64,000 nucleotides of DNA from an uncultured Gammaproteobacteria bacterium (GCA_964597575.1 CAZQXB010000001.1:594511-658510); one strand, 5' to 3'. Counted from the stretch's first letter, positions 2,439 through 60,536 are shown. Numbers and translations: made by a program. The notes: generated by a model not told the origin, from the letters alone.

Positions 2439-2439
2439 A

Positions 2440-2466: not shown

Positions 2467-2504
2467 CTTTCCCCTGCTCCTATAATGATTCATTATCTAT
2501 CCGT

Positions 2505-14883: not shown

Positions 14884-14967
14884 AGACAAAAAAAGATAAT
14901 GCCCCTATGACAAAGGGTACCAAATTAAAGAACTATTCGCAATTTTTTATCCTCTTTGTCGCCTTCT

Positions 14968-38010: not shown

Positions 38011-38610
38011 CTATTGACCAAGAACACGGGTAAATGTCATCGTTCCTGCACCACCCTTGAGGTTTAATGTAAGCGTATTTCCAGATGCAGATACCGTATA
38101 CCCAATCACATCAGTTAAATACCCAGAATAAATAGTTTCTTGAGAATCTTTGCAATACATAAGGGTTGATGTTAACGGACCGATGCTCATGTATCCAGCA
38201 TTTGCGGTGTATTTTCCAGAAACGCTATTGCAGTCAGTGTGACTTACCATGCGTTCTCGCGTTTCAAAACTGAGCACAAAACGTTCAGGATTTTTTGGAG
38301 TAAACGTTCCTGTTTTAAGGGTTGTTTTCTGCCACTTCCAGGTTGTTCCGAATAAAGCTCCATTCATCGGTTCCGGAGTTGGCGCAGGAACTGGTGCTTT
38401 CGGAGTAGGCGCTGGCGGCTTAACTGCTCGAGCAGGTGGTTTTACCGCCGTTCCCGGAGCTACCACAGTAGTTGTTGGAGCTGCGCTTGGCTGAGGATCC
38501 ACTCCCTGTTTCTTTTCCTTATCTGGTTTCATCATGAATGCCACCCCGAGCGAAATAATAACGACCCCTGCCACGACAACAAGAAAAATAAATGGCGCCT
38601 TCTTTGTCAT
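38011..38610 (-). CDS. Membrane-anchored META-domain (DUF306/HslJ-like) protein
   Basis: TM anchor (FIFLVVVAGVVIISLGVAF), a PA-rich linker and a C-terminal META-like domain (CNSVSGKYTANAGYMSIGPLTSTLMYC). A GTG at 38682 overlaps the upstream stop, so the start is uncertain. Confidence 0.65.
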   Translation of the reverse strand: MTKKAPFIFLVVVAGVVIISLGVAFMMKPDKEKKQGVDPQPSAAPTTTVVAPGTAVKPPARAVKPPAPTPKAPVPAPTPEPMNGALFGTTWKWQKTTLKTGTFTPKNPERFVLSFETRERMVSHTDCNSVSGKYTANAGYMSIGPLTSTLMYCKDSQETIYSGYLTDVIGYTVSASGNTLTLNLKGGAGTMTFTRVLGQ

Positions 38611-38678
38611 ACTTATGAAGAATAAGAAATATTGTATAGTATAGCACACTCTATACAAAATTATCTCTTTTTTTCTCC

Positions 38679-39956
38679 TCACGATAATCCCTGACGTATC
38701 TCTTCTTCCACTAAACGCTTTGGGCGAGCATATGCTAAACGACTTAAACGCCGAAGTGTTGTAATTTGTTCCGCGTCGGCAGTGCCCCGTGCAGGTAAAC
38801 TTACTCCAGAAAACGCTTCACTCATTTTGCCATCAATCATGAGCTTCAAATAAAAATGAAATTTTGGAAGGTTAAGGAAATCTTCTTTCTTTATCGGATA
38901 GAATTCTTTTGCGAGCATCTCTGCATCTTCCACACCGACCCCAAAAGCCATAAATGTGCCTACGTTTCCTAAAATAGAATCTTGCATTCGTTCGGGAAGC
39001 TGTGCAAAGTACTGATTGGTCAAGTGAACCCCAAGCCCGTACTTGCGTGATTCCGAAAGTAAGCTTGAAAAGGTATCAGAAATAAGATTCTGAAACTCGT
39101 CGACATACAAATAAAAAGGGTATCGTTTTTCGACCGGCAACCCCGCTCTTTTTAAAATCGCAGCCTGTAATTTTGAAATGAAAATAAGCCCGAGCATCTG
39201 TGCATTAATGTCCCCAATTTTTCCTTTCGAAAGATCAATCAAAAGAATCTTTTCTCGATCAAGGATGTGGTCAAACTGAAAAGCTGATTTTCTCTGCCCG
39301 ATGATATTTCTCATGAGGCCGTTATTCATGAAGTGGCCAAATTTTGAGGTAAAATAATTAAGCATTTCGGATTTATGAAAATCTGAGGTACTTGCCATCT
39401 GCTTTGTCCAAAAATCAATCACCAGTGGGTCTTTTATGAACTTCCGCTTCGCAAGCTCAAACCGTTTATCAATAAAAAGTTTCGGGATCTCAATAAGGCT
39501 TCCCCCTTCTGGCCCCGCCATCACGGTCAGGGCCGCGCTCCGAAGCCAGTGCTCAAATTGTGGACCAATGATCCCTGTTTTATCCGGATCAAATAATTTA
39601 TAAAAAATTTCAATAACCTGAGCCACGAGAAAATCTTTTTCTGCTTCGTCACGCCACTCAAGCAAATTTAACCCAAAGGAGCATTCCGCATCAGAAGGAT
39701 CAAACAAAATAACATCCTCTAGACGGTTTTTTGGAATACGTTCTAAAAGCCAAGCGATCGACTCACCGTGAGGGTCGATGAAACAGACGCCATGCTGGTT
39801 TTCAATATCCTGCAAGCAAAGATTTTGAAACATGGTGGACTTCCCTGCCCCGGTTTTTCCAAGCATATACATATGCCGCAAACGATCGGCATCTTTATAC
39901 ACGATAGAGGTTTTTTTATTCCGAAACTCATTCGTTCCAAGGAGAACAGTAGGCAT
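38679..39956 (-). CDS. Soluble P-loop NTPase of the TraD/TraG/VirD4 coupling-protein (HerA/FtsK-like) superfamily
   Basis: 425 aa. HMYMLGKTGAGKST (Walker A) is followed by FIDPHGE. ILLIDLSKGKIG, LYVDEFQNL (Walker B-like) and ESRKYGLGVHLTNQYFAQL are also present, with no N-terminal TM segments. Confidence 0.6.
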   Translation of the reverse strand: MPTVLLGTNEFRNKKTSIVYKDADRLRHMYMLGKTGAGKSTMFQNLCLQDIENQHGVCFIDPHGESIAWLLERIPKNRLEDVILFDPSDAECSFGLNLLEWRDEAEKDFLVAQVIEIFYKLFDPDKTGIIGPQFEHWLRSAALTVMAGPEGGSLIEIPKLFIDKRFELAKRKFIKDPLVIDFWTKQMASTSDFHKSEMLNYFTSKFGHFMNNGLMRNIIGQRKSAFQFDHILDREKILLIDLSKGKIGDINAQMLGLIFISKLQAAILKRAGLPVEKRYPFYLYVDEFQNLISDTFSSLLSESRKYGLGVHLTNQYFAQLPERMQDSILGNVGTFMAFGVGVEDAEMLAKEFYPIKKEDFLNLPKFHFYLKLMIDGKMSEAFSGVSLPARGTADAEQITTLRRLSRLAYARPKRLVEEEIRQGLS

Positions 39957-39961
39957 ACAAT

Positions 39962-40246
39962 TTATTCTTCAGTTCCGAAAAACTTTTGCTCAAAATAATA
40001 GGGCGGGAGAACAAACGAATAGTGAGATAGTGTCTCTTGTTTTGCCTCCTCAACCGCAAATAGTTTTTTTAAGGCTTTTCTTTCTTGCTCTAACTTTTCT
40101 TCAATAGTATGAAAAAACTTTGGACTTACCACTCTTTCAATCTTTTTAAGCTCTGCACAACGCGCATGATAAAGAGCTGTAATATCTTCTTCAGAAAGCA
40201 TCGGGGCTTCCGCGCTGCCATGTATAGGGGAATAGAAGTGGGTCAT
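39962..40246 (-). CDS. Hypothetical 94-aa protein
   Basis: It overlaps the upstream AAA+ gene stop by 4 nt (ATGA) and has no family match. Confidence 0.4.
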   Translation of the reverse strand: MTHFYSPIHGSAEAPMLSEEDITALYHARCAELKKIERVVSPKFFHTIEEKLEQERKALKKLFAVEEAKQETLSHYSFVLPPYYFEQKFFGTEE

Positions 40247-41910
40247 ACTTCATCGGCTAAAAGTTTTTCACTAATCAAATTTTCACACGTTGTTTCAATA
40301 AAACGTTTTACCGGTCGGGCACCAAAACGTGGATCAGACAACGTGCGAATCTTCTTTTTTAGAATTTCAGGGTCAATTTTAAAGGAAATTTTGTGTTTTG
40401 CAACCCGTGCCTCTACTTTTTTAATTTCTAACTTCGCCACCTCAAGCAGGTGTTCTTCGGTAAGAGGTTGAAAAACAAGCACAGCATCAAACCGATTTAA
40501 GAATTCTAAACGAAAAAATTGCGCGAGTGCAGGGACCAATTTTTCCTGAAAGAAAGCCTCGCTGTGAATGTCATCTCCTTTTTTAAAGCCATCGATAATA
40601 TCACCCACAGCTAAGTTTGAAGTAGCCATAATAACCGTTTGCGTGAAGTCGATGGTCTCACCCTGACCTGAGGTAAGTCTTCCATCATCTAAAATCTGCA
40701 AAAAGACATCAAAAATTTTGGGATGGGCTTTTTCAATTTCATCGAGAAGCACCAAACTGTACGGCTCCGTTTTTACGGCATTGGTGAGCCCTCCCCCTGC
40801 TTCAAAGCCGACATATCCTGCAGGCGCACCAATAAGACGCGCCACGGTGTGTGCCTCGCCAAATTCGGACATATCAATACGGACAAAACTTTTCTTTCCC
40901 CCGAACAACTCACTTGCCAACACTTTCGCTGTTTCTGTTTTTCCAACCCCAGAAGGACCGAGCACAAGAAAAGACCCGAGGGGGCGGTTTGGATTCTTTA
41001 GCCCAAGCTTCGCTCGCTTCACGGTTGAGGCAATTTGATTCAATGCAACTTTCTGCCCAATAATATGAGAATTAAGCTTATGTTCCAGTTGGCGAAGACG
41101 TTCTTTTTGAGATACTTGGAGTTCAGTTAAAGGAACGCCTACTTTATCAGAAATAACCTGATAGACATCCTCCTCTTTTACCTCCTTCCCTCCTTTTGTT
41201 TTGACGAGCGTTACAGACTCATCGAGAATACTTACCCCTGCCCCTGGCGAGTGACCGAGAACGGCAAACCGTTCAACGAGGCTCAAAATAAGCTCCAAAA
41301 TAGTTTGAGGGATTTGAATATGAGGGAGACCGAAACGCTTTTCCGCCGCCCGAAGAATTTGTATCTGCTCAGCTGCAGGTTGGGGTTTCAATGTCAGAAC
41401 TTCAAAAAAATGAAGAAATTGGGCCTGTTCGTTTTGAAGCCATGCAAATTCTTTCGATTCAAAAGAAAGAATCAACCGTACTTTTCCCAAATCAGCAATT
41501 GGTTTCAAAAGCTGAATCATATGCTGAAGAATGATCGGTTTGTTGTAGACGAGTGCTCCAAAATTATCAATAATAAAAACACAGCTCGGTAGTGAATCAA
41601 GTGCTTCTTTATATTTTTGAAGTGGTACCTGTACGGTACTATTTAAAGGTTCAAACGCCGAAGCTTCACATTCCACCACTCGAAAGGGTTTTGTTTCCTT
41701 TTTTTGAGCATATCGCTCCGCAAAACCACGAAGGAGAGAAGTTTTTCCAATGCCATTTGGCCCGACCACAATACAATTGTTGTGTACTGTACGGTGGACG
41801 ACCCGCTCCATGCGCTCACACTCTTCAGCACGACCAATACACGGCAAAAGACGCCCTTTGAATGCTTCGAGTGTTAAATCGTAATACCCAATTTTTGTAA
41901 ACTCAGGCAT
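40243..41910 (-). CDS. Clp/Hsp100-family AAA+ ATPase paralog lacking the N-domain, with a degenerate D1 Walker B
   Basis: 555 aa. D1 has Walker A VVGPNGIGKTS, but its Walker B is FIIDNFG, where Asn replaces the catalytic Glu. D2 is canonical: LGPSGVGKTE, LVLLDEIEKAH and sensor region SNLAVGD, with a ClpB-like D2 C-terminus. Confidence 0.8.
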   Translation of the reverse strand: MPEFTKIGYYDLTLEAFKGRLLPCIGRAEECERMERVVHRTVHNNCIVVGPNGIGKTSLLRGFAERYAQKKETKPFRVVECEASAFEPLNSTVQVPLQKYKEALDSLPSCVFIIDNFGALVYNKPIILQHMIQLLKPIADLGKVRLILSFESKEFAWLQNEQAQFLHFFEVLTLKPQPAAEQIQILRAAEKRFGLPHIQIPQTILELILSLVERFAVLGHSPGAGVSILDESVTLVKTKGGKEVKEEDVYQVISDKVGVPLTELQVSQKERLRQLEHKLNSHIIGQKVALNQIASTVKRAKLGLKNPNRPLGSFLVLGPSGVGKTETAKVLASELFGGKKSFVRIDMSEFGEAHTVARLIGAPAGYVGFEAGGGLTNAVKTEPYSLVLLDEIEKAHPKIFDVFLQILDDGRLTSGQGETIDFTQTVIMATSNLAVGDIIDGFKKGDDIHSEAFFQEKLVPALAQFFRLEFLNRFDAVLVFQPLTEEHLLEVAKLEIKKVEARVAKHKISFKIDPEILKKKIRTLSDPRFGARPVKRFIETTCENLISEKLLADEV

Positions 41911-41917
41911 AGGAAAA

Positions 41918-44434
41918 CTAAGCAGCTATGGCGATTGGTGTCTGCGGTACAGAGTGTTGAAGAATACTCCTCACATTTCCTTCAATCACCTCTTCCAATT
42001 CACTTGGATTATACCCACGAACGCGACCGAGAAGAGACTCTACTTGACCCCGAGTTCTCGCCGTAATTTCTTTTTTAAATTCTTCGCCAATTTTTTCTTT
42101 CCCTTGTGGCACCATCTCTGGTTTCAAAGTAGCGCCGTCGGTTTGTTTTGCAACATCGCGTACATATGTTCTTTCTTCAAAGCCTTTTTGGTCGGGCGTT
42201 TCTTTTCTCTCTAGCCCAATTTTTTCAGTAGTTTCAAACTTCAACGACACCCCTTCACTTGTGGTTTTTTCAGGAACCGTATGATTCGTGTCTAATTGGT
42301 CTATGTTTTTTTCGGCAACCACAACCTCTTTTACAACAGTTTCTTGTCTTAAAGATACAGAAGGTGAAAACAGCACCGCAGGTTCCGAGGTGGCGGTTCT
42401 TTCCTTATCCGTATTATTCACGATTTCTACTATGCCCACATCTTCCAAAGAAGGCGTTTCAGAAAATTCGACCATCTTTGTAACAGGAATAACTTGAGCT
42501 TTTTCCACAATATCCTTTTCAGTTGCTTCAACTACTTGAGCTACAAACACCTCTTCCATCACGAACACTCCTTCAGAATTATTTTCATAATCCTGAACTT
42601 GGCCAGACTCTTTCTCCACTATTGCTATACCAGATACATCGTCAACAATGGGCAGGTAAGTTTCTTTTCCCACTCCTAGCACCCCAGAAAGAGTAGTGGG
42701 AAGGGAAACAGGAGCCACACTCTCAATATCGGTATCAGTAATTGCCTGCTCCACGAGCCCAATACCAGTTTCCTGCCATACCGCTTGCGCAGTTTCAGCA
42801 AAAGTTTCTTCCTCCGCTACTAAATTTTCTTTTCTCTCAGATACTGTCGTTTCTGTAACAGAAAAAGGGGTAGATTCGATAGAAGCTGAAGAGTTATCTA
42901 CCTCAACCATCGGGAAAACTTCCGTGTCAAAAATAAGTGTTATCGCTTCTGGGGTAGGAGTTGCAGTATTACTTTCTCTCTTAAAATCCGTGACGCGCTC
43001 ATCCCTCTCTACAACTTCCGTATCTCCCTTTTCATGGAAAGAAAAAGTCTCTTCAAAAGAAGTGTCGGCAACCACAATAGACTCTGGGGCAAAATTTTCT
43101 CTTTCGCCCACTGTCATTTTTTTAATATGAAGAGAATTTTCACCTTCTTCAGAACTTGATGCACTTTTTTCTATGTCATCTCTCAGAATAGGGGCCACAT
43201 CTACATAGTGAGAAAAAGAAGACATCTCTGACTCTCCTACCAGACCACGCGAAACATCATATGTTTCTAACTCAATACCAGAAGAGACTTTTATCTCTTT
43301 TGTTTGGAAAGAGGGATCTTCCGGAGTTTGAACTTCTAAAAAAACAGGAACACCTTCTGAAATCTCAAAAGATTGACCTTCCTTTTCAAGGGTAATGCCG
43401 AGCAGCTCCCCCTCTGTTTCATAAACATGCTGAATAACTTCACTGCGTGGGGCATGAACTTGCCGTGCAACATCTCCTAATTCTAGAATCTGAGGAATGA
43501 GTTCATGATTCTCCTCTACAGAAGCCGCCTCGTCTACACCTTCTTGTTCTAATGAAGGGGTGGTAAAAATTTCTTTAGGTAACATTATCGGCGACACCTC
43601 ACCTAAAAAAGGTTGCTCAAATTTTTCAGTTTCAAAAACATGAGATTCTTCAGGCGCAGCAAACATCCGATCAAACCAGGAGTTCTGTTCCTCCGTAGTC
43701 TCTAGATTACCATTCTCGGGTAAGGACAGTTCCACACCCGTGGCGATTACGCCAGATACATCATGGTGCTCTAAAGATTCCTGCCAGATAGGGGTTAAGT
43801 TAAGTTCAATGCCCTGCGTACTTAAATCAACCACCGTTCCATCACCCTCTTCATCAAGCTCGCCATCATTCGCTACCCTCTCCGCAGACACAGGGACATC
43901 ACGAGTAAATCCATACATTGCAATCTTACCATCAGCAGTCACCCACATTTTTGATATATGCCACACCTCTTTATCACCTTTTTGTTCGACATGCTTTCCA
44001 ATATGCTCTGATCTCGGACCCTCCTGAAGGGCCCCCCGCATTCGTTCGTGGTACGCAATCTCCTCGGCTGTACCGGTCTCATGCACACCCTTGGTAACAT
44101 CGTGCTGTGTTCTTGGTACGAATAAATGCCCGGTAGTTGCATCAAACTCCATTTGTCCCACATTGTCAGAAAATTCTACACTCCACTCAGACATCTCCCC
44201 ACCAAACATCGTTCGAATTTCCTCTAAAGCAGATTCCTGAGTGGGAGGAGTATACTCCTCAGAGACGCTAGCTGGCTCTCGTTCATTCTGCAAAGCCAGC
44301 TCTCCAGAATCAGGGGATGCTGGAGGAAGCTCAACTGAATTTGGCGCGCGAAAAGGACTACCCTCACTAGAATTGGGAAATTGATCTTCTTCAGGCTCTT
44401 TTTCAATTCTCTGTTGTCCGTGGAGTTCTCGCAT
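41918..44434 (-). CDS. 838-aa hyper-acidic, low-complexity (E/D/S/T/V-rich) protein with a short globular N-terminal region
   Basis: Acidic residues dominate throughout. There is no TM or signal peptide. Residues ~90-180 (FDATTGHLFVPRTQHD...WHISKMWVTADGKIAMYGF) look globular. It is first in the operon. Confidence 0.6.
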   Translation of the reverse strand: MRELHGQQRIEKEPEEDQFPNSSEGSPFRAPNSVELPPASPDSGELALQNEREPASVSEEYTPPTQESALEEIRTMFGGEMSEWSVEFSDNVGQMEFDATTGHLFVPRTQHDVTKGVHETGTAEEIAYHERMRGALQEGPRSEHIGKHVEQKGDKEVWHISKMWVTADGKIAMYGFTRDVPVSAERVANDGELDEEGDGTVVDLSTQGIELNLTPIWQESLEHHDVSGVIATGVELSLPENGNLETTEEQNSWFDRMFAAPEESHVFETEKFEQPFLGEVSPIMLPKEIFTTPSLEQEGVDEAASVEENHELIPQILELGDVARQVHAPRSEVIQHVYETEGELLGITLEKEGQSFEISEGVPVFLEVQTPEDPSFQTKEIKVSSGIELETYDVSRGLVGESEMSSFSHYVDVAPILRDDIEKSASSSEEGENSLHIKKMTVGERENFAPESIVVADTSFEETFSFHEKGDTEVVERDERVTDFKRESNTATPTPEAITLIFDTEVFPMVEVDNSSASIESTPFSVTETTVSERKENLVAEEETFAETAQAVWQETGIGLVEQAITDTDIESVAPVSLPTTLSGVLGVGKETYLPIVDDVSGIAIVEKESGQVQDYENNSEGVFVMEEVFVAQVVEATEKDIVEKAQVIPVTKMVEFSETPSLEDVGIVEIVNNTDKERTATSEPAVLFSPSVSLRQETVVKEVVVAEKNIDQLDTNHTVPEKTTSEGVSLKFETTEKIGLERKETPDQKGFEERTYVRDVAKQTDGATLKPEMVPQGKEKIGEEFKKEITARTRGQVESLLGRVRGYNPSELEEVIEGNVRSILQHSVPQTPIAIAA

Positions 44435-44705
44435 AATTAAAAACGCACCTCTCCCGAGGTGGTCAAAAAATATACTGAGATAGATATTTCCTGCTCGGGA
44501 TGTCTACACTATTTGGCGATCTGACTCCTTTAGGCTGCCCTAAAGATTACAGTTGCGGCACAGTACCGGAATTTCACCGGACTTCCCCAAATAGCTGCTC
44601 AATTGTGTGTCCATTGTATCTCGCGCATCGAGCGGTGTCAAACGTCCAAATATCACAAAAAAATATTCACTACTGCGTACACTAAAATGGTTATCCACAC
44701 CGTAT

Positions 44706-44761: not shown

Positions 44762-45511
44762 ATGAGTTATACGGTTAACCAGTTAGCGCAACTCGCACAC
44801 ATTAGCGTGCGGACACTTCATTACTATGATGAAATTGGGCTTCTCGAACCCTCTTCTGTCATGAAAAATGGATACCGCTCCTATGAGGAAAAAGAACTTA
44901 TCCGCCTGCAGCAGATACTCTTTTTTCGCGAGCTCGAGTTTACGCTCGAAGATATTAAGCGCATGCTCAACCGCCCCAATTTTAGTGTGGTCGAGGCGCT
45001 TCGAGACCAAAAAAAACTCATGCAGTTAAAACAGAATCGCCTCACGAACCTCGTGAAGACGATTGATAAAACGATTCGCACTATGACGAAGAATCAAAAA
45101 ATGAATGATGAGGAAATGTACGATGCATTCAAAGATGAAGATGTGAAACAGTATCAGGAAGAAGTGAGAGAGCGTTGGGGAAATACAGAGGCGTACAAAC
45201 AAAGCCAGGCCAAAGTGAGCAAAATGACAAAAAAAGAAATGGACAAGCTAAAAGAAGATGGAAAGAAGTTTACCGAAGAGCTTGCAAAGGCCATGGATAA
45301 GCCAATCGATAGTAAAGAAGTACAGGCGCTTATCCAAAAACACTACGATGGGGTAAACCTTTTTTACACGTGCGATCTTCAGATGTATCGAAACCTTGCT
45401 CAAATGTATGTCGACGATCCACGATTCACGGCCTATTACGATAAATTCCGCCCAGGTCTTGCCGTATTTGTTCGGGATGCGATCTTTCATTACATTGATG
45501 CAAAAAAGTAA
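44762..45511 (+). CDS. MerR-family transcriptional regulator with TipAS/Mta-like C-terminal effector domain
   Basis: N-terminal HTH MSYTVNQLAQLAHISVRTLHYYDEIGLL and a coiled-coil linker. The C-terminal domain resembles the TipAS antibiotic-recognition domain. Confidence 0.85.
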   Translation: MSYTVNQLAQLAHISVRTLHYYDEIGLLEPSSVMKNGYRSYEEKELIRLQQILFFRELEFTLEDIKRMLNRPNFSVVEALRDQKKLMQLKQNRLTNLVKTIDKTIRTMTKNQKMNDEEMYDAFKDEDVKQYQEEVRERWGNTEAYKQSQAKVSKMTKKEMDKLKEDGKKFTEELAKAMDKPIDSKEVQALIQKHYDGVNLFYTCDLQMYRNLAQMYVDDPRFTAYYDKFRPGLAVFVRDAIFHYIDAKK

Positions 45512-53469: not shown

Positions 53470-56382
53470 CTAGAATTTCTTCGTGATGATGTCCACCAGT
53501 CTATTCAAGAATTTTGGAAAGTCTTTAAGTACAAATCGACCTTTATAATCTCTCAAAATCAATTCCTGCAAGGTTTGTTTTATATCCTTCACAAACACAT
53601 CCCGCTTTGAGGATTCCTGCCAACCACTATCGAGATCGTCTTCAATACGAATGCGCAACTCTTTTATAAATTCCTTTATCACATCCTCTTTTCCAGCCTC
53701 AACAAACTCTTGAGAAATGACATAGAGCGCGTATTCCTTTAGATCAAGCCCTAGATCCTTCGCCTCGTCTCCTTTCGTCTTGATATCGCTCATCAATTCC
53801 TCATATCGGCGTATTCGTTCGGCAAGGTCAATTTGATTCTGTTCAAACTCACGACGAATAGCGGTTAGCCGTTCGCTAAACTTCTGATACGCCGGATTTT
53901 CATCAAGATTGATAGAGATTTCCTGCTTGAGCATCTTCTCAAGGTTGAGAGCCTTTTCTTCTTCGTCCATTCCCTTGAGGCGTTCAAGCGTGTACAAATC
54001 ATTCACGCGAAGTTCTCTGAAATTCTTGGTGATTCCTTCGTAGTCGATGATATTGCTCTTTTGAATAAGCTCTTTAACTTTCTCCCCATATTCTTCAAGC
54101 AAATAGCGATCATCTTCGCTTCGGAATTCTTTCAAAAATGCCAGGTAAAAACTCGTCACCCATTCAAACGGACGAATATACTGCTTCAGGAATGGATCAG
54201 GCGAAAGAAACTCAAACAAACTCTTGAGCTTCATATACTTCTCAACAAAGTATTTCTGCTTGTCTTGATTATCGATGAAAATCTTGAGACATCGACGAAG
54301 ATTATCCATTGATGGGTCTTCAATATTCACGCCGGTAAATACCTTCATCACATCATTTAAGACATCAGTAAATCGCGCCTTGACTCGCTCAATATCAATC
54401 ATCGCCGAATCAATGACGTCTTCGTCAAAATCTAGAGCATCATAAAGATTCCTCGTAATGCCATAGTAGTCAATAATCTTTCCGGCTTCTTTGTTTTTAT
54501 ATACCCGATTCGTACGCGCAATAGCCTGCAAGAGGTTGTGGTCGCGAAGCGGCTTGTCGAGGTACATCACTTGCTCAATCGGCGCGTCAAAACCAGTGAG
54601 CAACATATCGCACACCAAAAGGAATTTAAGTGATGACTTTGAATCTTTGAATTTCTCAATGATTTGCTCTCGCTCACGTTTGCTCGTGTTGTACACCTTC
54701 AAATCATCCGCATCACTGTTTGGGTCGCCAGGCGAATACACTACCGCCGACCATTCAGCCGGAACCAATTTATCAAGTAGCTTTTTATACGTTGCCACGG
54801 CTTCACGGTCATATGCCACTATTTGCCCCTTAAAGCCGTTTGGCTCCACATAGAGCTTGTAATGCTCCACAATATCCCTTGCCACGGCTTCCATACGCTT
54901 AGGAAGCTTCACGAGCGCTGCTTTCTTACCATACTTCTTCACCAACTCGGTCTTTTGTTTGTCTGACAAATCTCCAGCAATCTCTTCAAACTGTTGATCA
55001 AGCTTTTCTTCATCAATAGAAAACTTTGAAAGACGCGCTTCGTAGGTAACAGGGATAGTCGCCCCGTCATCAATCGCTTGCTGGATAGAGTAGTAGTCCA
55101 AGTATCGCTTCCCATCACCTTCATAATTTCGGAATGTATTGGTATGCGTCTTATCCACCGGCGTTCCAGTGAATCCGAAGAAAAATGCTTTTTTGAACGC
55201 ATTACGCATGTTAATACCCGACACACCCTCGTCCCCTCGATGCGCCTCGTCAGAAAGCACAATCACATTCTCATCAAGATTTTCCACCTTGTCTCCAAGC
55301 TCAGCAAACTTCTGAATGGTCGTAATGAATATGCCTTTCTCCGGTGATTGAATTTTTTCTTCCAAATCTTTGCGCGAAGTGACACGAACAATATTTTTTC
55401 CACCAGCATTGGTAAATGTTTCAAATATTTGATCGTCCAAATCCACGCGGTCAACCAAAATAAATACCTTAGGGTTTTCCAGTTGTTTATTAAACCGTAG
55501 TTTCCATGCCGTGAAATACATCGTGAGCGTCTTGCCTGACCCTTGTGTGTGCCAAATAAGCCCTTGTCGTTTCTCTTTACTTACAACACGCTCAACAATT
55601 TTATTCGTCGCACGCATTTGCTGATAACGAGCAATTTTCTTCACCAATTTCTCCTTCTCTTTTTCAAATAAAATGAAATTTTGCACGATATCCAAAAAAT
55701 TCTCTTTAGAAAGAAGTGAGAAAAGCGACATCTCCAACTCTCCACCAAGCTCTTTTTCCATGTCTTCGTCGCGCCACTGGAGGAAGTATTGCTTTGGCGC
55801 GCCGGTTGCACCGTACACCGTTTTGAGCCCGTCGCTCGCGATATTGAAGCAGTTGGGAATAAACAACTTGCGAGCTACTTTTTCGTATCGCTTTATCTGG
55901 TCAATACCATTTTCAAAACTCACACCCTCCGAAGCCGTCGGGCTTTTGGCCTCAATATCTACAAGCGGAAGCCCGTTTACGAAAATCATAATATCCTGAC
56001 GTATGTTTTCCGTATCCCCCTCAAAATAGAATTGATTAGTAACAACAAATTGATTGTTTTCTGGATTATCGAAATCTACGATTTTATAATCGCGAAATAA
56101 TCCCGTTGCAGAATCTTTGAGGTTTATACCGTTACGAATTGCGTCAAGAAAAATTTGATTTGAGTCAATTTTATTTACTTCACGCAAAATACTTTTGGCG
56201 ACAGTATCATCAACGCTGTTTATTCTTTTAATAGCATCAAGTAATTGTGGTTTGATAGTATACTCACTCTCCAAATCACGGAGTTTGGCAAATTCCTCTG
56301 GTTTTATGTATTCAAAACCAAGCTTATCTTTAATAAACCTGATGATGTAATTTTCTACTGTAACTTGTTCATTGAATTTCAT
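53470..56382 (-). CDS. hsdR: Type I restriction enzyme R subunit
   Basis: ATG at 56382 (MKFNEQV), an N-terminal nuclease region, helicase motifs (QGSGKTLT, VLSDEAHR) and a C-terminal helical domain. The track ORF starts at an upstream TTG. Confidence 0.9.
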   Translation of the reverse strand: MKFNEQVTVENYIIRFIKDKLGFEYIKPEEFAKLRDLESEYTIKPQLLDAIKRINSVDDTVAKSILREVNKIDSNQIFLDAIRNGINLKDSATGLFRDYKIVDFDNPENNQFVVTNQFYFEGDTENIRQDIMIFVNGLPLVDIEAKSPTASEGVSFENGIDQIKRYEKVARKLFIPNCFNIASDGLKTVYGATGAPKQYFLQWRDEDMEKELGGELEMSLFSLLSKENFLDIVQNFILFEKEKEKLVKKIARYQQMRATNKIVERVVSKEKRQGLIWHTQGSGKTLTMYFTAWKLRFNKQLENPKVFILVDRVDLDDQIFETFTNAGGKNIVRVTSRKDLEEKIQSPEKGIFITTIQKFAELGDKVENLDENVIVLSDEAHRGDEGVSGINMRNAFKKAFFFGFTGTPVDKTHTNTFRNYEGDGKRYLDYYSIQQAIDDGATIPVTYEARLSKFSIDEEKLDQQFEEIAGDLSDKQKTELVKKYGKKAALVKLPKRMEAVARDIVEHYKLYVEPNGFKGQIVAYDREAVATYKKLLDKLVPAEWSAVVYSPGDPNSDADDLKVYNTSKREREQIIEKFKDSKSSLKFLLVCDMLLTGFDAPIEQVMYLDKPLRDHNLLQAIARTNRVYKNKEAGKIIDYYGITRNLYDALDFDEDVIDSAMIDIERVKARFTDVLNDVMKVFTGVNIEDPSMDNLRRCLKIFIDNQDKQKYFVEKYMKLKSLFEFLSPDPFLKQYIRPFEWVTSFYLAFLKEFRSEDDRYLLEEYGEKVKELIQKSNIIDYEGITKNFRELRVNDLYTLERLKGMDEEEKALNLEKMLKQEISINLDENPAYQKFSERLTAIRREFEQNQIDLAERIRRYEELMSDIKTKGDEAKDLGLDLKEYALYVISQEFVEAGKEDVIKEFIKELRIRIEDDLDSGWQESSKRDVFVKDIKQTLQELILRDYKGRFVLKDFPKFLNRLVDIITKKF

Positions 56383-56389
56383 AGTATTA

Positions 56390-57571
56390 CTATGGTTTTT
56401 TGTCCAAGTTCGCCACAAACCCTTCTTTTGATAAAATTTCTACAATCCCTCGCAAAAGATAGTTGTTTGCAAAAGCCACTGTATAAATCCTACCGTTTTC
56501 TTTGAGCGGCATGACCATCTTTTTTTCTTTCAACTTCGAGATAATACGAGACCTTTGCACTGATGAATCCTCATTCAACACCTTCTCCAAATCGCCGGCT
56601 TTTACTTGCATATCTTTTTGAGAGATTATAAATGTCAGAATCTTATATTCTCGATCAGTAATCCATTTATTCTCAAGAGAAAAACTAAAAACTGGTAACA
56701 AAATACTATTGATCAAATAATTTTGATCAAGCAATTTATCTATTTTTTCAATTTCAGCCTTTAGACCCGAGAATACATATTCGCACCATGCGATTGTTTT
56801 TTCTTGTTCTCCAGTATCCGCACCGGCAAGCATATCGTAATATTTTTGCCTATCCATACAAAACATTGCTGTTGGGTTCAAAATCGAACCCGTCTTCACC
56901 TGAAACCCCTGCTTAATGAGCATGGCATAGGTTAGTAACCGCACCAAACGGCCATTTCCATTATCAAACGGGTGAATCCAAGCAAAACGATGGTGTGCCA
57001 GTGCCATAACTAAGAGGTCATTCGCTTTTTCAGTCTTTTGATTTACAAAAGAAAGTAGTTCGTCAAAATAATTTGGTACTTGCAGGTATTCAGGTAAGAC
57101 AACCGAAGACCCTGTAATTTCAGGATTTACATTTCGAAGTTCACCGGGCCGCGCTGAACCTTCTCCTTCTGGTGGTGGAGTAAGATCTTTCGTTATGATT
57201 TTATGCACTTCTGATAAAATAGCCCTACTGATCTCGGTATCTTCTTTAATAGTCTTATGCAAAAATTGCAAAGCATTTTCAATATTATCAATTTCTCTAG
57301 AGCTTTCGTCTGTACGGGTTTTTCCTTGAATTTTTTTCTCCACGAATTCCGCCAGTGTTGTACGATTACCTTCTATTCGTGCCGAACCCAAACTTTCTAG
57401 TATATGAAAAATATCTTTCAATTGAAAAAAGATGTACGGTGGCACACCCACGCTAAAAATCCGTTTAGTGCGTAGTTCTTCAAGCTCAAAAATCAAAGTG
57501 GCAAGACGCGAGTTCCACTCTGGTTTTATAAGCTTAAGCGGTATTTCTTTGAATTCTCGTGTATTTTTCAT
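56390..57571 (-). CDS. Fic/DOC-family protein (AMPylase-like) with C-terminal winged-helix
   Basis: Fic motif HPFDNGNGRLVRLL. Confidence 0.85.
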   Translation of the reverse strand: MKNTREFKEIPLKLIKPEWNSRLATLIFELEELRTKRIFSVGVPPYIFFQLKDIFHILESLGSARIEGNRTTLAEFVEKKIQGKTRTDESSREIDNIENALQFLHKTIKEDTEISRAILSEVHKIITKDLTPPPEGEGSARPGELRNVNPEITGSSVVLPEYLQVPNYFDELLSFVNQKTEKANDLLVMALAHHRFAWIHPFDNGNGRLVRLLTYAMLIKQGFQVKTGSILNPTAMFCMDRQKYYDMLAGADTGEQEKTIAWCEYVFSGLKAEIEKIDKLLDQNYLINSILLPVFSFSLENKWITDREYKILTFIISQKDMQVKAGDLEKVLNEDSSVQRSRIISKLKEKKMVMPLKENGRIYTVAFANNYLLRGIVEILSKEGFVANLDKKP

Positions 57572-57708
57572 AAATTGATGATAGCATTATTTACAACATA
57601 CTACAATACTATTTAACATATACACATACAAAAGCCTTATTTTAAGCTATTTTATTACATATACTCTGTAGTATTATTTAACATTTCTCTAATAATGATT
57701 TAACATAT

Positions 57709-59013
57709 TCATGGGATCATTTTCCCAATCGCAGCAAGATGATCAGTTCTCACTTGTCCGCTTAATAAGTCTTGCATCAGGCCTTTTTTGAGGAGAGTAA
57801 ATTTTTCTTTTAATTTTTTATTGACCAAAATCTTTTCATCGACTGCGGAAAGAATTTCCGCAATTTCTTTTTGTTCATCTTCTGTTGGAATCGGGATATA
57901 TACCTGCTCCAAGCTTCCTATAGGCAACTGGGGCTGAGCTGAGCCGGAGACGATTTCTTTATACTTTCGCTTCAACATATCACTCTTCATTAAATGATAT
58001 AGGAAGACTGCCTCGACGCCGTCAAAAGCTCTTAATAAAACCATGCCTGAATTAATTCTTATATTTTCGAAGGTAACATTTTTATCGTAATAAGCAACGT
58101 TTCCTACGGTACCTCTCGTGGTCAACACAACATCTTCCCTTTGAAGCCTTCCCTTTCTTAACGCTTGATCCTTTTCTCTTGATATGAACTGCAATTCGTT
58201 AAATAAAAACTTATCGTCTTTAATGTTCTTATTATTCAGGAACAGACAATAACCCCCACTTGTGAGATAGGGGTCAATAAAATCATGGCCGTGTGGGTAA
58301 TTAACACCGCGATCACCATCAATTATTTCTATAGGTGCATCTTTTAACTTTAAAACCTCCCACTCTTGAGGAATCTGCCCGATTTTTGTTTCTTTAAATT
58401 TTGTATGCCCAATCCCGCGAGTAAAGAGCTGTTGCATCAGTCCGCGTTTGAGTTTTTCTGTCGTCTCAATCACTTCCTGCGTTTTCGCGATATCCTCATC
58501 CACCACACCTAAAATCTCTGCAATCTTTTGCTGTTCTTTGATTGGAGGAATAAGAACTTCAATTTGAGTTTTTATTACAGATGGTCGCACCTCCTTTATG
58601 GTGCTACCAGAGGAAAGTTTGTGCAGAAGATTTTTCTTACTTAGAAGTAAATAATACAAATAAGTATTAAGAAGGTCATCATTTGGTATAATCCCCGCAA
58701 TTCCTTGCTTTGTAGTAACAGGAACATCCGCAATACCAACTTCGCCAATAGTAGCCCCGAACGACAGGATTACGCTTCCAGTCGGCCACAGTTTTGCAGA
58801 TGATTTTTGGAGACCTTCATCCGTAAGTGTGTCCTTTGTTTGTTTAATATGTGGTTTTATATCATTAACCACAACCCAAGGAATCTTGCCGCCAAAATAT
58901 TCATCTTTTGAACGCAAAGGTGTCCCTCCATCACCAATATCAGCGAGAAAATTGCCCAATTCTCCAAATTTCCATCCATTCGGAATATTCTGTTGCGTTT
59001 TAGTGATTGGCAT
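57709..59013 (-). CDS. hsdS: Type I R-M specificity subunit with two target-recognition domains
   Basis: Two TRD-like halves separated and followed by conserved coiled-coil spacers (LKRGLMQQLF / LKKGLMQDLL). The ATG is at 59013. Confidence 0.85.
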   Translation of the reverse strand: MPITKTQQNIPNGWKFGELGNFLADIGDGGTPLRSKDEYFGGKIPWVVVNDIKPHIKQTKDTLTDEGLQKSSAKLWPTGSVILSFGATIGEVGIADVPVTTKQGIAGIIPNDDLLNTYLYYLLLSKKNLLHKLSSGSTIKEVRPSVIKTQIEVLIPPIKEQQKIAEILGVVDEDIAKTQEVIETTEKLKRGLMQQLFTRGIGHTKFKETKIGQIPQEWEVLKLKDAPIEIIDGDRGVNYPHGHDFIDPYLTSGGYCLFLNNKNIKDDKFLFNELQFISREKDQALRKGRLQREDVVLTTRGTVGNVAYYDKNVTFENIRINSGMVLLRAFDGVEAVFLYHLMKSDMLKRKYKEIVSGSAQPQLPIGSLEQVYIPIPTEDEQKEIAEILSAVDEKILVNKKLKEKFTLLKKGLMQDLLSGQVRTDHLAAIGKMIP

Positions 59014-59677
59014 ATTCTTCAATTAACTTTCTCGCGTATGCACGACCAAAATATTTTATGACAACAAACCCGAAACATAGGTACAGACCGTAGCCGATCA
59101 AACAGATTACTCCAACGGTGCGCAGCAGACTCAATGGCTCGGAAAGAAAAATAAGAAGTAGTGACCCGAAAATTCCGCTCAAAGAAGCTCCCCAGAGGTT
59201 TCTGACGAATCCATACTCGATATTATGTTGAAGTACCAAGTAGCCATCTTTTACCTTCCCGATTATCACGCGGATGGAATCCTTGATTCGCTTACGCGCA
59301 TCTTTTTCGTTCTTGTGTTCGTCATCTGCGGTTGGCAGCTGAATTGATAAATCTCTTTTGACCGCCTGACGGATCTGGTCTTTAAACTCGCTCGAATATT
59401 CATCATCAGAGTACATAAGGAAGCTTGTTGTTGGAAAATAAAGTTGCTTCTTAAACAAAAAGTCCTCAAAAATTTTACTCGGTATGCGAACAAAATACTG
59501 GTTGAAGGTATAAAGTAGAATGGTTGACAGCCCAACATTTCCGACAGCAGAAGCGATTAAGGAATCAATATTCCAGATGTTGTTGAGGTAAAAATATTGA
59601 AAAACAAACCACGGAATAAGTCCGATGATAGTCGGAAAGATTCTCGCTATGAGGTTGTAAGTGGAGAATATTTTCAT
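59000..59677 (-). CDS. Hypothetical 4-TM membrane protein embedded in the R-M operon
   Basis: 225 aa with two N-terminal and two C-terminal TM helices around a charged cytoplasmic middle. The gap to the upstream gene is 2 nt, and it overlaps hsdS by 14 nt. Confidence 0.5.
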   Translation of the reverse strand: MKIFSTYNLIARIFPTIIGLIPWFVFQYFYLNNIWNIDSLIASAVGNVGLSTILLYTFNQYFVRIPSKIFEDFLFKKQLYFPTTSFLMYSDDEYSSEFKDQIRQAVKRDLSIQLPTADDEHKNEKDARKRIKDSIRVIIGKVKDGYLVLQHNIEYGFVRNLWGASLSGIFGSLLLIFLSEPLSLLRTVGVICLIGYGLYLCFGFVVIKYFGRAYARKLIEEYANH

Positions 59678-59679
59678 AT

Positions 59680-60534: not shown

Positions 60535-60536
60535 AT

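What the first reader, a model, noticed from the sequence alone, without database searches (positions are those of the whole stretch)
38011..44434. Tightly coupled 5-gene operon as candidate undescribed translocation/unfoldase system
Five minus-strand genes are packed with 4-nt ATGA overlaps or gaps of 7 nt or less, which implies co-translation as one unit. (1) An 838-aa hyper-acidic E/D-rich protein comes first. (2) A Clp/Hsp100 paralog lacks an N-domain and has a D1 Walker B of DNF rather than DE, so D1 can bind ATP but probably not hydrolyse it, while D2 is intact. (3) A 94-aa protein follows. (4) A TraD/VirD4/HerA-like P-loop ATPase lacks the TM anchor of true coupling proteins. (5) A membrane-anchored META/HslJ-like domain protein comes last. 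A canonical clpB exists elsewhere in the window (2505-5144), so the Clp paralog is not the housekeeping disaggregase. A dedicated unfoldase plus a hexameric translocase-like ATPase plus a giant polyanionic protein suggests a substrate-handling machine in which the acidic protein is cargo, DNA-mimic or scaffold. No such gene set is a named system as far as I know.
Basis: partly seen in the sequence, partly recalled or inferred. Interest (0 to 1): 0.75.

Follow-up and report, generated by a model that had tools for sequence, protein, structure and literature searches.

The report
Vitamin-B12-controlled protein-handling gene cassette
Many species of ultra-small CPR (Patescibacteria) bacteria carry the same four-gene unit behind a vitamin-B12-sensing RNA switch: a huge acidic protein with a degradation-tag-like tail, a stripped-down ClpB-type unfoldase, a small helper protein and a secretion-type ATPase with no membrane anchor; I found no described system that matches it.

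Summary
The five ORFs exist as described.

- **Synteny:** in all 70 related Patescibacteria loci that carry the short ATPase, the order is large acidic protein, Clp paralog (~553 aa), small protein (~100 aa), soluble TrwB/VirD4-like ATPase (~426 aa). The flanking genes are not conserved.
- **META gene:** it occurs only in this lineage. Its 4-nt overlap depends on an over-extended GTG start.
- **Riboswitch:** a cobalamin riboswitch (window 44506-44605, minus strand) lies between a strong promoter and a terminator hairpin. It precedes the acidic gene here and in 50 of 54 assessable loci.
- **Acidic proteins:** they form one family. Each has a ~110-aa N-terminal domain with no close solved relative, a long polyacidic linker, and a C-terminal tail. 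The tail ends in Ala-Ala in 60% of members against about 1% of background ORFs, which resembles the ssrA tag.
- **Clp paralog:** it lacks the N-domain, the M-domain and a ClpP loop. Its D1 catalytic Glu is absent in 67 of 67 homologs, while D2 is intact.

Best reading: a B12-repressed machine whose dedicated client is the acidic protein. What the machine outputs is unknown. I found no description in the literature; a 2025 survey only notes that Patescibacteria have orphan T4CP genes.

The parts
44613..44641 (-). Sigma-70-like promoter TTGACA-17 nt-TACAAT, directly upstream of the riboswitch
   Evidence: 11 of 12 consensus positions, the best site in the 6.9-kb region scanned.
44506..44605 (-). 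Cobalamin (B12) riboswitch aptamer in the 5' leader of the cassette
   Evidence: Rfam RF01689 AdoCbl-II scores 42 bits against a gathering score of 36.5, with the full model matched. Homologous elements lie in the same position in 50 of 54 assessable loci. Ten of the 18 other loci scanned pass the gathering score of a cobalamin-clan model.
44436..44461 (-). Expression platform: hairpin CACCUC-GGGA-GAGGUG followed by a U-run. It overlaps the Shine-Dalgarno sequence GGGAGAGG and ends 12 nt before the ATG
   Evidence: Terminator-like site; the hairpin also forms in the MFE fold. A comparable GC-rich hairpin with a U-run lies between aptamer and start codon in 37 of 42 loci.
41918..44434 (-). 838-aa polyacidic protein, the proposed client or cargo
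   Evidence: Net charge -105. No Pfam or NCBIfam family. A same-strand acidic ORF occupies this position in 64 of 67 loci; among the 61 of at least 200 aa the median pI is 4.5.
43901..44233 (-). Conserved N-terminal domain of the acidic protein (aa 68-178)
41921..42070 (-). Conserved C-terminal region of the acidic protein (aa 789-838), ending ...TPIAIAA-COOH. It is a basic patch plus an ssrA-like tail
   Evidence: 38 of 64 syntenic acidic proteins end in -AA, and so do 73 of 122 context-free family representatives. Among the 997 other ORFs in the loci, 13 end in -AA (1.3%), and three of those 13 lie in or next to a cassette. The commonest tail is NGITL[KR][RI]AA.
40243..41910 (-). 555-aa Clp/Hsp100 paralog: a degenerate D1 ring and an active D2 ring, with no N-domain, M-domain or ClpP loop
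   Evidence: Aligns to T. thermophilus ClpB residues 158-394 and 519-829. The D1 Walker B Glu is absent in 67 of 67 homologs. The D2 Walker A, Walker B and GYVG pore loop are invariant.
39962..40246 (-). 94-aa protein, member of a conserved family of about 100 aa with the C-terminal motif VL[DN]PxYFxQKxL
   Evidence: An ORF lies between the Clp and ATPase genes in 55 of 67 loci, and these ORFs can be aligned. No Pfam or NCBIfam family. Only 3 database hits.
38679..39956 (-). 425-aa soluble TrwB/VirD4-like (type IV coupling protein-like) P-loop ATPase
   Evidence: Pfam TrwB_AAD_bind and TraG-D_C score above their gathering scores. The AF2 model (pLDDT 79.5) matches TrwB-deltaN70 best, over about 415 columns at E = 1e-12 and TM about 0.6, followed by DotL and HerA. 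There is no TM segment. Median identity across lineages is 67%.
38011..38610 (-). Membrane-anchored META-domain protein (199 aa from the ATG). It is a lineage-specific downstream neighbour, not part of the conserved cassette
   Evidence: PF03724 at E = 1.4e-15. Present only in the window genome and its closest relative L002. A 68-nt gap separates it from the ATPase gene.

Best explanation
This is a chromosomal, cobalamin-regulated four-gene cassette that so far appears only in Patescibacteria.

Shown:
- One transcription unit starts at a strong promoter and runs through a cobalamin riboswitch and an intrinsic-terminator/SD-sequestering hairpin.
- It then encodes four proteins, with gaps of 7 nt or less or ATGA overlaps between them:
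  (1) a large polyacidic, mostly low-complexity protein with a small folded N-terminal domain and a conserved basic C-terminal region ending hydrophobic-x-x-Ala-Ala-COOH;
  (2) a ClpB-derived double-ring AAA+ protein reduced to D1 and D2, in which D1 keeps its P-loop but has lost the catalytic Glu and the pore-loop Tyr;
  (3) a protein of about 100 aa;
  (4) a very highly conserved soluble homolog of the cytoplasmic part of type IV coupling proteins.

Inferred:
- Like most cobalamin riboswitches, this one switches the unit off when B12 is available, so the cassette is a low-B12 response.
- The acidic protein is the machine's dedicated client. Its ssrA-like tail is engaged by the D2 pore (GYVG) of the Clp paralog, which threads or unfolds it without degrading it, since there is no ClpP-docking loop.
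- The small protein acts as adaptor or coupler.
- The T4CP-like hexamer receives or moves the polyanionic chain, either towards a membrane channel encoded elsewhere or as a remodelling or regulatory step.

What the client does at its destination is unknown.
For: Cassette and regulation:
- The Clp gene lies directly upstream of the ATPase gene in 70 of 70 short-ATPase loci.
- The acidic protein and the small protein are in place in most loci.
- Beyond the cassette the best-conserved neighbour family occurs in only 11 of 80 loci, and the rest are housekeeping genes.
- The riboswitch passes Rfam gathering scores in the window and in 10 of the 18 other loci scanned. It is detected in 50 of 54 assessable loci, always on the same strand just upstream of the acidic gene.
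- Promoter and terminator hairpin in the window. The hairpin is conserved in 37 of 42 loci.
- No terminator-like site on the minus strand inside the unit.

Client hypothesis:
- The exact C-terminus is Ala-Ala in 59-60% of family members against about 1% of background ORFs. It is preceded by a conserved NGITL-type motif and a basic patch in a protein that is otherwise about -60 to -100 in net charge.
- The unfoldase gene is translationally coupled to the acidic gene, 7 nt downstream.
- D2 has an invariant pore loop and invariant ATPase motifs, and there is no insertion at the ClpP-loop position.
- Conservation falls steeply from motor to proposed client: ATPase 67%, Clp 48%, small protein 34%, acidic protein about nil. 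This is the pattern expected for conserved motors acting on a fast-evolving, largely disordered client.

T4CP-like nature: fold match to TrwB-deltaN70 and DotL.

Literature: 5,713 VirD4-like genes occur in 2,918 Patescibacteria genomes, and only 148 of them lie near virB4. The authors suggest these genes may have been exapted for another function (PMC12102498).
Against: - No interaction, unfolding or transport was tested, and no multimer modelling was possible.
- ClpB-type proteins are not known to read ssrA-like tails. ClpX and ClpA do, so the tail could equally address the housekeeping ClpXP or FtsH.
- About 40% of family members do not end in -AA, although most of those still end in -xA.
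- No membrane or channel component is linked to the cassette, and the ATPase has no TM anchor, so export is unsupported.
- The direction of riboswitch control (OFF with B12) is assumed from the class, not shown.
- Nothing in the four proteins has an evident link to B12 chemistry.
- The N-domain fold gave no functional lead.
Confidence: 0.45

Rival explanations
1. Nucleic-acid motor with a DNA-mimic regulator. The T4CP-like hexamer translocates DNA or RNA, as TrwB, FtsK and HerA relatives do. The polyacidic protein is a nucleic-acid mimic that plugs or regulates the motor, and the Clp paralog removes it. The link to B12 would run through B12-dependent ribonucleotide reductase: when B12 is low, DNA handling or uptake is switched on to secure deoxynucleotides.
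For: - The closest folds, TrwB and HerA, are DNA-dependent translocases.
- The client carries an extreme negative charge, -105.
- The ATPase is unusually conserved, which fits a universal substrate such as nucleic acid.
- From established knowledge, B12 riboswitches elsewhere control B12-independent ribonucleotide reductases.
- The cassette sits in housekeeping contexts.
Against: - No nuclease, helicase, ComEC or DNA-binding partner is conserved next to the cassette.
- This model gives no reason for a conserved exact C-terminal Ala-Ala.
- The acidic linker is variable in length and low in complexity, unlike known structured DNA mimics.
- The presence of a B12-dependent reductase in these genomes was not tested.
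Confidence: 0.15
2. Turnover-only reading. The Ala-Ala tail is an ordinary ssrA-type degron read by housekeeping ClpXP, ClpCP or FtsH. That makes the acidic protein a short-lived regulator or scaffold whose level tracks riboswitch output. The neighbouring Clp paralog and T4CP-like ATPase act on something else.
For: - The tail resembles ssrA tags. The one tmRNA found in these loci encodes a tag ending ...FVPALA.
- From established knowledge, ClpX and ClpA are the known readers of such tails.
- Cultured Patescibacteria encode ClpP and a ClpC-like ATPase (supplement of PMC10633639).
Against: - The acidic gene is strictly linked and translationally coupled to a dedicated AAA+ unfoldase across lineages, while all other neighbours change.
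- A protein made only to be degraded would be an expensive 300-1100-aa product.
- The conserved motif extends well beyond the last two residues.
Confidence: 0.15
3. Corrinoid acquisition or trafficking system. As with most riboswitch-controlled genes, the cassette serves the ligand's own economy. One possibility is that the N-domain, with its invariant His and nearly invariant Met, binds corrinoids, and that the ATPases extract or hand over B12 from captured proteins.
For: - The cobalamin riboswitch is the most conserved non-coding feature of the unit.
- From established knowledge, these organisms cannot make B12.
- No canonical B12 transporter genes are seen nearby.
- The N-domain has an invariant His in an HxxML motif.
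Against: - There is no similarity to any known B12-binding fold or transporter.
- No membrane component is present.
- A polyacidic chain of 300-1000 aa has no precedent in B12 handling.
- The His/Met argument is weak.
Confidence: 0.1
4. Remnant or module of a mobile element, a conjugative T4SS, or an anti-phage defence system of the HerA type.
For: - Pfam names the ATPase after conjugative coupling proteins.
- There are weak PADLOC hits to mad8 and HerA models.
- A type I restriction-modification system lies about 9 kb away in the window.
Against: - No relaxase, VirB4, VirB6, integrase or defence effector occurs within 10 kb in 80 loci.
- The cassette is embedded among housekeeping genes.
- The ATPase is 51-83% identical across lineages, which is unlike mobile or defence genes.
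- GC content is in line with its surroundings.
- The PADLOC matches are generic P-loop matches.
Confidence: 0.03

Closest known systems
Type IV coupling proteins (TrwB/VirD4/TraD; DotL coupling complex with the small adaptors IcmS/IcmW)
   Same: - The 425-aa protein has the same overall fold as the cytoplasmic part of TrwB and matches DotL.
- It has Walker A and B motifs and passes the Pfam T4CP domain thresholds.
- T4CPs recognise C-terminal, often basic, signals on substrates.
- In the Dot/Icm system they work with small (~100 aa) adaptor proteins.
   Different: - There is no N-terminal membrane anchor.
- There is no linked T4SS or relaxase.
- Sequence conservation is far higher than is usual for T4CPs.
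- It is always paired with an AAA+ unfoldase and is riboswitch-controlled.
- It scores far below every NCBIfam TraD/VirD4 cut-off.
ClpB/Hsp104 disaggregases
   Same: D2 is 40-50% similar to ClpB D2, with the same pore loop, Walker motifs and D2-small domain. As in ClpB, there is no ClpP-binding loop.
   Different: - It lacks the N-domain.
- It lacks the M-domain coiled coil that couples ClpB to DnaK.
- D1 has lost the catalytic Glu and the pore-loop Tyr.
- A canonical ClpB is also present in the same window.
- It scores 407 bits against a cut-off of 1232.
ssrA tag with ClpXP/ClpAP (with SspB or ClpS adaptors)
   Same: A C-terminal ...(L/I/R/M)AA-COOH on the presumed substrate, an AAA+ unfoldase encoded next to it, and a possible adaptor of about 100 aa.
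   Different: - The tail is genome-encoded on one dedicated protein, not added by tmRNA.
- The neighbouring unfoldase is ClpB-like and has no protease-docking loop, so the expected outcome is unfolding or transfer rather than degradation.
Secretion-system AAA+/FtsK-like pairs (T6SS ClpV; T7SS EccA with EccC/EssC)
   Same: A specialised Clp/AAA+ paralog is dedicated to one machine, and it is combined with an FtsK/HerA-superfamily ATPase that reads C-terminal signals of substrates.
   Different: - No T6SS or T7SS structural genes are present.
- ClpV needs its N-domain, which is absent here.
- EccC has TM segments and three ATPase domains.
- The substrates here are 300-1100-aa polyacidic proteins, not WXG100-type proteins.
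Cobalamin riboswitch regulons
   Same: The leader element meets Rfam thresholds for AdoCbl-II, AdoCbl and Cobalamin. It is followed by a terminator or SD-sequestering hairpin, like classical OFF switches.
   Different: The controlled genes are not B12 transporters, B12 biosynthesis genes or B12-independent isozymes. No known B12 regulon contains a Clp paralog, a T4CP-like ATPase or a polyacidic protein.

Membership tests
Type IV coupling protein (VirD4/TrwB/TraD) | FtsK/HerA-type P-loop nucleotide-binding domain with Walker A and B | tested here: met
   GKTGAGKS and YLYVDEF are invariant in the alignment. Pfam TrwB_AAD_bind scores 32.9 against 20.5, and TraG-D_C scores 31.2 against 22.
Type IV coupling protein (VirD4/TrwB/TraD) | Overall fold of the cytoplasmic domain (NBD plus inserted all-alpha domain) | tested here: met
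   The top 26 Foldseek PDB hits are TrwB-deltaN70 chains, covering about 410-430 columns at E about 1e-12 and TM 0.57-0.62. DotL follows. Model pLDDT is 79.5, so this is a moderate-confidence result.
Type IV coupling protein (VirD4/TrwB/TraD) | N-terminal transmembrane anchor | tested here: not met
   No hydrophobic 19-residue window in any of the ~426-aa homologs. The protein starts directly with the beta-strands of the NBD.
Type IV coupling protein (VirD4/TrwB/TraD) | Genetic or functional linkage to a T4SS channel (VirB4/VirB6) or a relaxase | tested here: not met
   None within 10 kb in 80 loci. The literature reports that only 148 of 5,713 Patescibacteria T4CP homologs lie near virB4 (PMC12102498).
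Type IV coupling protein (VirD4/TrwB/TraD) | Curated equivalog score (NCBIfam TraD/VirD4/TrbC models) | tested here: not met
   The best model is TIGR03743 at 44.7 bits against a cut-off of 366.
ClpB/Hsp104 disaggregase | N-terminal domain and M-domain coiled coil | tested here: not met
   The alignment to 1qvr starts at ClpB residue 158 and jumps from residue 394 to residue 519. TIGR03346 scores 407 bits against 1232.
ClpB/Hsp104 disaggregase | Two hydrolysis-competent AAA+ rings (Walker B hhhhDE in both D1 and D2) | tested here: not met
   The D1 catalytic position is D (34), N (21), S (6), G (5) or K (1), and never E, in 67 homologs. D2 reads LLDEIEKA in 67 of 67.
ClpA/ClpC/ClpX-type protease partners | ClpP-docking IG(F/L) loop inserted in the last AAA+ module | tested here: not met
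   There is no insertion relative to ClpB in that region. The columns there are not a conserved hydrophobic-G-F/L motif.
Cobalamin riboswitch (Rfam clan CL00101) | Score at or above the family gathering threshold, over the full model | tested here: met
   Window: RF01689 at 42.0 against 36.5, model positions 1-81. Ten of 18 other loci scanned pass RF01689, RF01482 or RF00174.
Cobalamin riboswitch (Rfam clan CL00101) | Position in a 5' leader with an expression platform | tested here: met
   Order is promoter, aptamer, hairpin with U-run overlapping the SD, then ATG. The hairpin occurs in 37 of 42 loci.
Cobalamin riboswitch (Rfam clan CL00101) | Binds a cobalamin and represses expression | not testable with these tools
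   Needs in-line probing or ITC, plus reporter assays.
ssrA-like C-terminal degron | Exact C-terminus hydrophobic/basic-Ala-Ala-COOH, conserved in the family | tested here: met
   38 of 64 syntenic proteins and 73 of 122 context-free representatives end in AA, against 13 of 997 background ORFs (three of the 13 lie in or next to a cassette).
ssrA-like C-terminal degron | Recognised by an AAA+ unfoldase | not testable with these tools
   Needs binding and unfolding assays or multimer structure prediction.
Anti-phage defence systems (PADLOC) | Significant full-length match to a system's signature proteins, plus its partner genes | tested here: not met
   Only generic P-loop/AAA+ matches (mad8 at 5e-13, HerA at 9e-8 or weaker over short stretches). 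There are no hits for the acidic, small or META proteins.
Conserved cassette defined here | META-domain gene as fifth member | tested here: not met
   A META homolog lies downstream of the ATPase gene only in L001 (the same genome) and L002. Downstream genes differ elsewhere.

The most novel reading that the evidence does not exclude
Patescibacteria possess a previously unrecognised, lineage-wide molecular machine. It would be a coaxial or adaptor-linked pair of hexameric motors: a ClpB-derived unfoldase and a membrane-less coupling-protein homolog. The pair would process a giant polyanionic, ssrA-tailed protein. The whole unit would be switched on by vitamin-B12 scarcity, which would make B12, probably supplied by the host or the community, a master cue for the symbiont's behaviour. 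In the boldest form, the acidic protein is delivered through the essential but functionally unexplained Patescibacteria T4SS into or onto host cells.
Probability: 0.3. Interest if true: 0.9.

Novelty: categorically new. Interest (0 to 1): 0.8.

Why it matters
Patescibacteria make up a large share of bacterial diversity, and most of their lineage-specific genes are unexplained.

- **Explains orphan T4CP genes.** A 2025 survey counted thousands of 'orphan' VirD4-like genes in Patescibacteria. This cassette gives them a concrete context and partner set.
- **Gives a physiological handle.** It is a conserved riboswitch-controlled regulon in this group, which shows that B12 status is sensed and acted on.
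- **Is directly testable.** Proposed tests are RNA-ligand binding, unfolding of tail-tagged reporters, and cryo-EM of the four proteins.
- **May extend known mechanisms.** It could reveal a new way of using AAA+ and FtsK/HerA-type motors together, and a new use of an ssrA-like tail as a targeting signal rather than a death tag.
- **Offers a tool.** The riboswitch is a ready-made native inducible element for Patescibacteria genetics, a need stated in PMC11665869.

Tried and rejected
- **Database search with the acidic N-domain:** the word-index search found nothing. I solved this with a local iterated HMM, an exact cluster look-up to obtain usable ids and a profile search of the representatives.
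- **Search with the 94-aa protein:** only 3 hits, so no structure prediction was attempted for it.
- **AlphaFold-database fold search:** not available.
- **PDB sequence search with the ATPase profile:** only marginal HerA, TdpA, TrwB and DotL hits. The fold search was needed to place it.
- **Defence-system reading:** rejected.
- **Conjugation or mobile-element reading:** rejected.
- **ClpP-dependent protease reading of the paralog:** rejected.
- **META gene as a component:** rejected.
- **B12-related genes in the window:** I looked and found none.
- **Experimental data in cultured Saccharibacteria:** their T4CP-like genes are the long, TM-bearing form, for example SEML1_0293, which is non-essential. 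They are not this cassette.
- **Literature searches:** combinations of Patescibacteria/CPR with riboswitch, cobalamin, VirD4, ClpB, unfoldase and T4CP found no description of the unit.
- **tmRNA comparison:** only one tmRNA was found in the loci, too few to test co-variation between its tag and the acidic tail.

Full report
**1. The observation**

ORF listing confirms five minus-strand ORFs at 41918-44434 (838 aa), 40243-41910 (555 aa), 39962-40246 (94 aa), 38679-39956 (425 aa) and 38011-38682 (223 aa).

The junctions are as follows:
- a 7-nt gap between the acidic gene and the Clp gene;
- an ATGA overlap between the Clp gene and the 94-aa gene;
- a 5-nt gap between the 94-aa gene and the ATPase gene.

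The fourth junction is different. The overlap is GTGA and depends on a GTG start that adds 24 odd residues. An independent gene call on a second assembly starts the META protein at the ATG 68 nt downstream, giving 199 aa beginning MTKKAPFIFLVV.

The protein descriptions hold:
- The first protein has 173 D+E against 68 K+R (net charge -105) and matches no Pfam or NCBIfam family.
- The second has a strong AAA_2 plus ClpB_D2-small C-terminal half and a weak P-loop N-terminal half.
- The fourth passes the Pfam thresholds for TrwB_AAD_bind and TraG-D_C and has no hydrophobic segment.
- The fifth is a META-domain protein with one membrane segment.

A canonical ClpB lies at 2427-5144 and scores above the TIGR03346 cut-off. 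The acidic ORF is not an artefact, because the identical product is called on an independent assembly.

**2. Organism and context**

The homologs of the ATPase come from metagenome-assembled genomes labelled Doudna-, Magasanik-, Falkow-, Pace-, Kaiser-, Nomurabacteria and Parcubacteria. The window therefore comes from a member of the Patescibacteria (CPR). The window carries ordinary chromosomal genes: SUF, CTP synthase, GatA-type amidase, DNA ligase, a P-type ATPase and a type I restriction system. Its GC content is even.

**3. Synteny**

I fetched 80 species-representative loci around ATPase homologs and called ORFs in them.
- Every locus with the short (~426 aa) ATPase, 70 of 70, has the Clp paralog directly upstream on the same strand. 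In three of these the Clp gene is fragmentary or split.
- An ORF of 75-125 aa lies between the two genes in 55 of 67 loci. These ORFs align and share a C-terminal motif VL[DN]PxYFxQKxL.
- The ORF upstream of the Clp gene is on the same strand in 64 of 67 loci and is typically 240-1134 aa with 16-29% D+E. Among the 61 of at least 200 aa, the median pI is 4.5 and the median net charge of the body is -63.
- Beyond these four genes nothing is conserved. The most frequent neighbouring family occurs in 11 of 80 loci. The others are housekeeping genes such as MurA-like, Mur ligase, DsbA/B, L20 and G6PD.
- The META gene follows the ATPase gene only in this genome and its closest relative.

The conserved unit is therefore four genes that stay together while the surroundings change.

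Conservation falls steeply along the unit. Median identity to the window proteins is 67% for the ATPase, 48% for the Clp paralog and 34% for the small protein. For the acidic protein it is almost undetectable.

**4. The missed regulator**

An Rfam scan of the window gives a single hit: a cobalamin riboswitch aptamer (RF01689, 42 bits against 36.5) at 44506-44605 on the minus strand, 72 nt upstream of the acidic gene's ATG.
- A near-consensus promoter (TTGACA-17-TACAAT) ends 8 nt upstream of the aptamer.
- A hairpin CACCUC-GGGA-GAGGUG followed by a U-run overlaps the Shine-Dalgarno sequence just before the ATG.
- Iterated nhmmer with the window aptamer finds the element in 49 loci, always on the cassette strand and immediately upstream of the acidic gene.
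- Rfam confirms cobalamin-clan membership above gathering scores in 10 of the 18 other loci scanned, including four that nhmmer had missed.
- In total 50 of 54 loci with enough upstream sequence have the element.
- In 37 of 42 loci a GC-rich hairpin with a U-run lies between the aptamer and the start codon.

This is the anatomy of a transcription-terminating or SD-sequestering riboswitch. That it is an OFF switch is an inference from how the class usually behaves.

**5. The acidic protein is a family with a defined architecture**

Plain pairwise searches fail. An iterated HMM shows a shared N-terminal domain of about 110 aa (window residues 68-178; E = 8e-41 in the local search).

A profile of this domain, searched against 1.84 billion representative proteins, finds 129 proteins. 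In all of them the domain lies near the N-terminus.
- Their median length is 575 aa, with 21% D+E and 9% K+R.
- AlphaFold gives a confident core (90 residues with pLDDT of 90 or more): a helix packed on a small antiparallel sheet.
- I therefore treat it as a domain with no close relative among solved structures.

The striking feature is the C-terminus.
- 38 of 64 syntenic proteins end in Ala-Ala (RAA, IAA, LAA, MAA, QAA). Several more end in VA, TA or QA.
- Only 13 of 997 other ORFs in the same loci end in Ala-Ala, and three of those 13 lie in or next to a cassette.
- In the context-free set from the profile search, 73 of 122 end in AA and 87 end in A. The usual tail is (N/D)G(I/V)(T/S)(L/M)xxAA.
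- The window protein ends ...TPIAIAA.
- The last 30 residues are about neutral, while the rest of the protein is strongly negative.

This looks like the ssrA tag (...ALAA), whose alpha-carboxylate and two alanines are read by AAA+ pores. That last statement is established knowledge, not something tested here.

**6. The Clp paralog**

Against T. thermophilus ClpB the protein aligns to residues 158-394 (D1) and 519-829 (D2). It therefore lacks the N-domain and the whole M-domain, and it has no insertion where ClpA, ClpC and ClpX carry their ClpP-docking loop.

Across 67 homologs:
- D1 keeps GxxGxGK[TS], but the Walker B catalytic residue is never Glu (D 34, N 21, S 6, G 5, K 1). The D1 pore-loop Tyr is not conserved.
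- D2 keeps its Walker A, its LLDEIEKA Walker B and the GYVG pore loop in all 67.

The protein is best described as a single-motor (D2) threading ring with a structural D1 ring, uncoupled from DnaK and from ClpP.

**7. The ATPase**

Sequence searches against solved structures give only marginal hits. The AlphaFold model (pLDDT 79.5) matches TrwB-deltaN70 best, over about 415 columns at E about 1e-12 and TM about 0.6. DotL and HerA hexamers follow.

It is therefore a homolog of the cytoplasmic part of a type IV coupling protein, without the membrane anchor. It fails every curated TraD/VirD4 equivalog cut-off and is not linked to a T4SS.

The literature agrees. A 2025 survey found 5,713 VirD4-like genes in 2,918 Patescibacteria genomes, only 148 of them near virB4. 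It raised the possibility that they have been exapted for other functions, without noting the partners or the riboswitch (PMC12102498). The T4CP-like genes of the cultured Southlakia strain are long, membrane-anchored forms and are not this cassette.

**8. How it most likely works**

- *Shown:* the unit, its promoter, riboswitch and terminator, the architecture of the four proteins, and the tail.
- *Inferred:* low B12 permits expression. The acidic protein is the dedicated client. Its tail enters the D2 pore of the Clp paralog, which unfolds or threads it without degradation. The small protein couples the parts. The coupling-protein homolog receives or moves the polyanionic chain.
- *Open:* whether the chain is then exported (for example through the Patescibacteria T4SS, whose function is unknown), merely remodelled, or acts as a nucleic-acid mimic on the motor.

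Rivals are given with their tests. The main ones are a DNA-handling motor with a mimic regulator (possibly tied to B12-dependent ribonucleotide reduction), a tail that merely targets housekeeping proteases, and a corrinoid-handling system. Mobile-element and defence readings are rejected.

**9. Novelty**

Searches of the paper library for Patescibacteria/CPR together with riboswitch, cobalamin, VirD4, ClpB, unfoldase or T4CP found no description of this unit. All ten acidic proteins looked up are annotated 'hypothetical protein' or carry no name.

The components belong to known superfamilies. I found no known kind of system that combines a riboswitch, a tailed polyacidic client, a reduced ClpB and a soluble coupling-protein homolog. 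I therefore rate it as a new kind of system whose function is still to be established. The limits are plain: there are no experiments, no multimer models and no whole-genome profiling.

Noticed in passing
L066 6792-12996; L072 87-5576; L076 1128-6163; L081 8867-14389 (also L073, L074, L077-L080): There is a second, distinct family of T4CP-like ATPases in Patescibacteria: about 820-830 aa with one N-terminal TM segment. It is often followed by a second paralog of 860-1030 aa, and there is no Clp paralog. It probably corresponds to the long, non-essential genes of Southlakia ML1 (SEML1_0293, SEML1_0142).
   Followed up: partly
L010 16280-16670 (tmRNA) and L010 3156-5558 (acidic protein): The only tmRNA found in the loci encodes a tag ending ...FVPALA rather than ...LAA. 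The acidic protein of the same genome ends ...EVAFA rather than ...AA. This may hint that the tail co-varies with the organism's own ssrA tag, but it is a single case.
   Followed up: no
L011 6713-7192 and ten other loci, directly upstream of the riboswitch: A ~160-aa protein with a PaaX_M (Cas2-like) domain lies on the same strand just before the riboswitch in 11 of 80 loci. It is the only recurrent neighbour of the cassette.
   Followed up: partly
window 44762-45511 (+): A MerR/TipAS-type regulator is transcribed divergently from the cassette promoter. The same arrangement occurs in the closest relative (L002) but not elsewhere.
   Followed up: partly
window 53470-62222 (-): A type I restriction-modification locus has a Fic/DOC-domain gene (56390-57571) between hsdR and hsdS. 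Its HsdM carries an N-terminal MerR-type HTH.
   Followed up: no
acidic-protein family (P0139-P0168 and others): Many family members start with a near-identical, very acidic N-terminus (MPTETE-F-DEE). This is a second conserved terminal motif of unknown role. The window protein lacks it.
   Followed up: no
L002, L009, L010, L012, L016, L023 and many 'binchicken' MAGs (record titles): Several GTDB representative MAGs that carry this Patescibacteria cassette are titled 'uncultured Gammaproteobacteria' or 'Candidatus Saccharibacteria' in their records. These labels are probably placeholders or errors.
   Followed up: no
L075 1102-5380: In a Saccharimonadia MAG the ATPase is 722 aa rather than ~426 aa. 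The small protein between the Clp and ATPase genes is itself acidic (20% D+E, 3% K+R) and ends ...LLEHAA. This is a variant layout of the cassette.
   Followed up: no
window 11464-14889 (-): A 1141-aa ORF whose only recognised domain is a bacterial Ig-like Big_7 domain. It may be a surface or adhesin protein.
   Followed up: no
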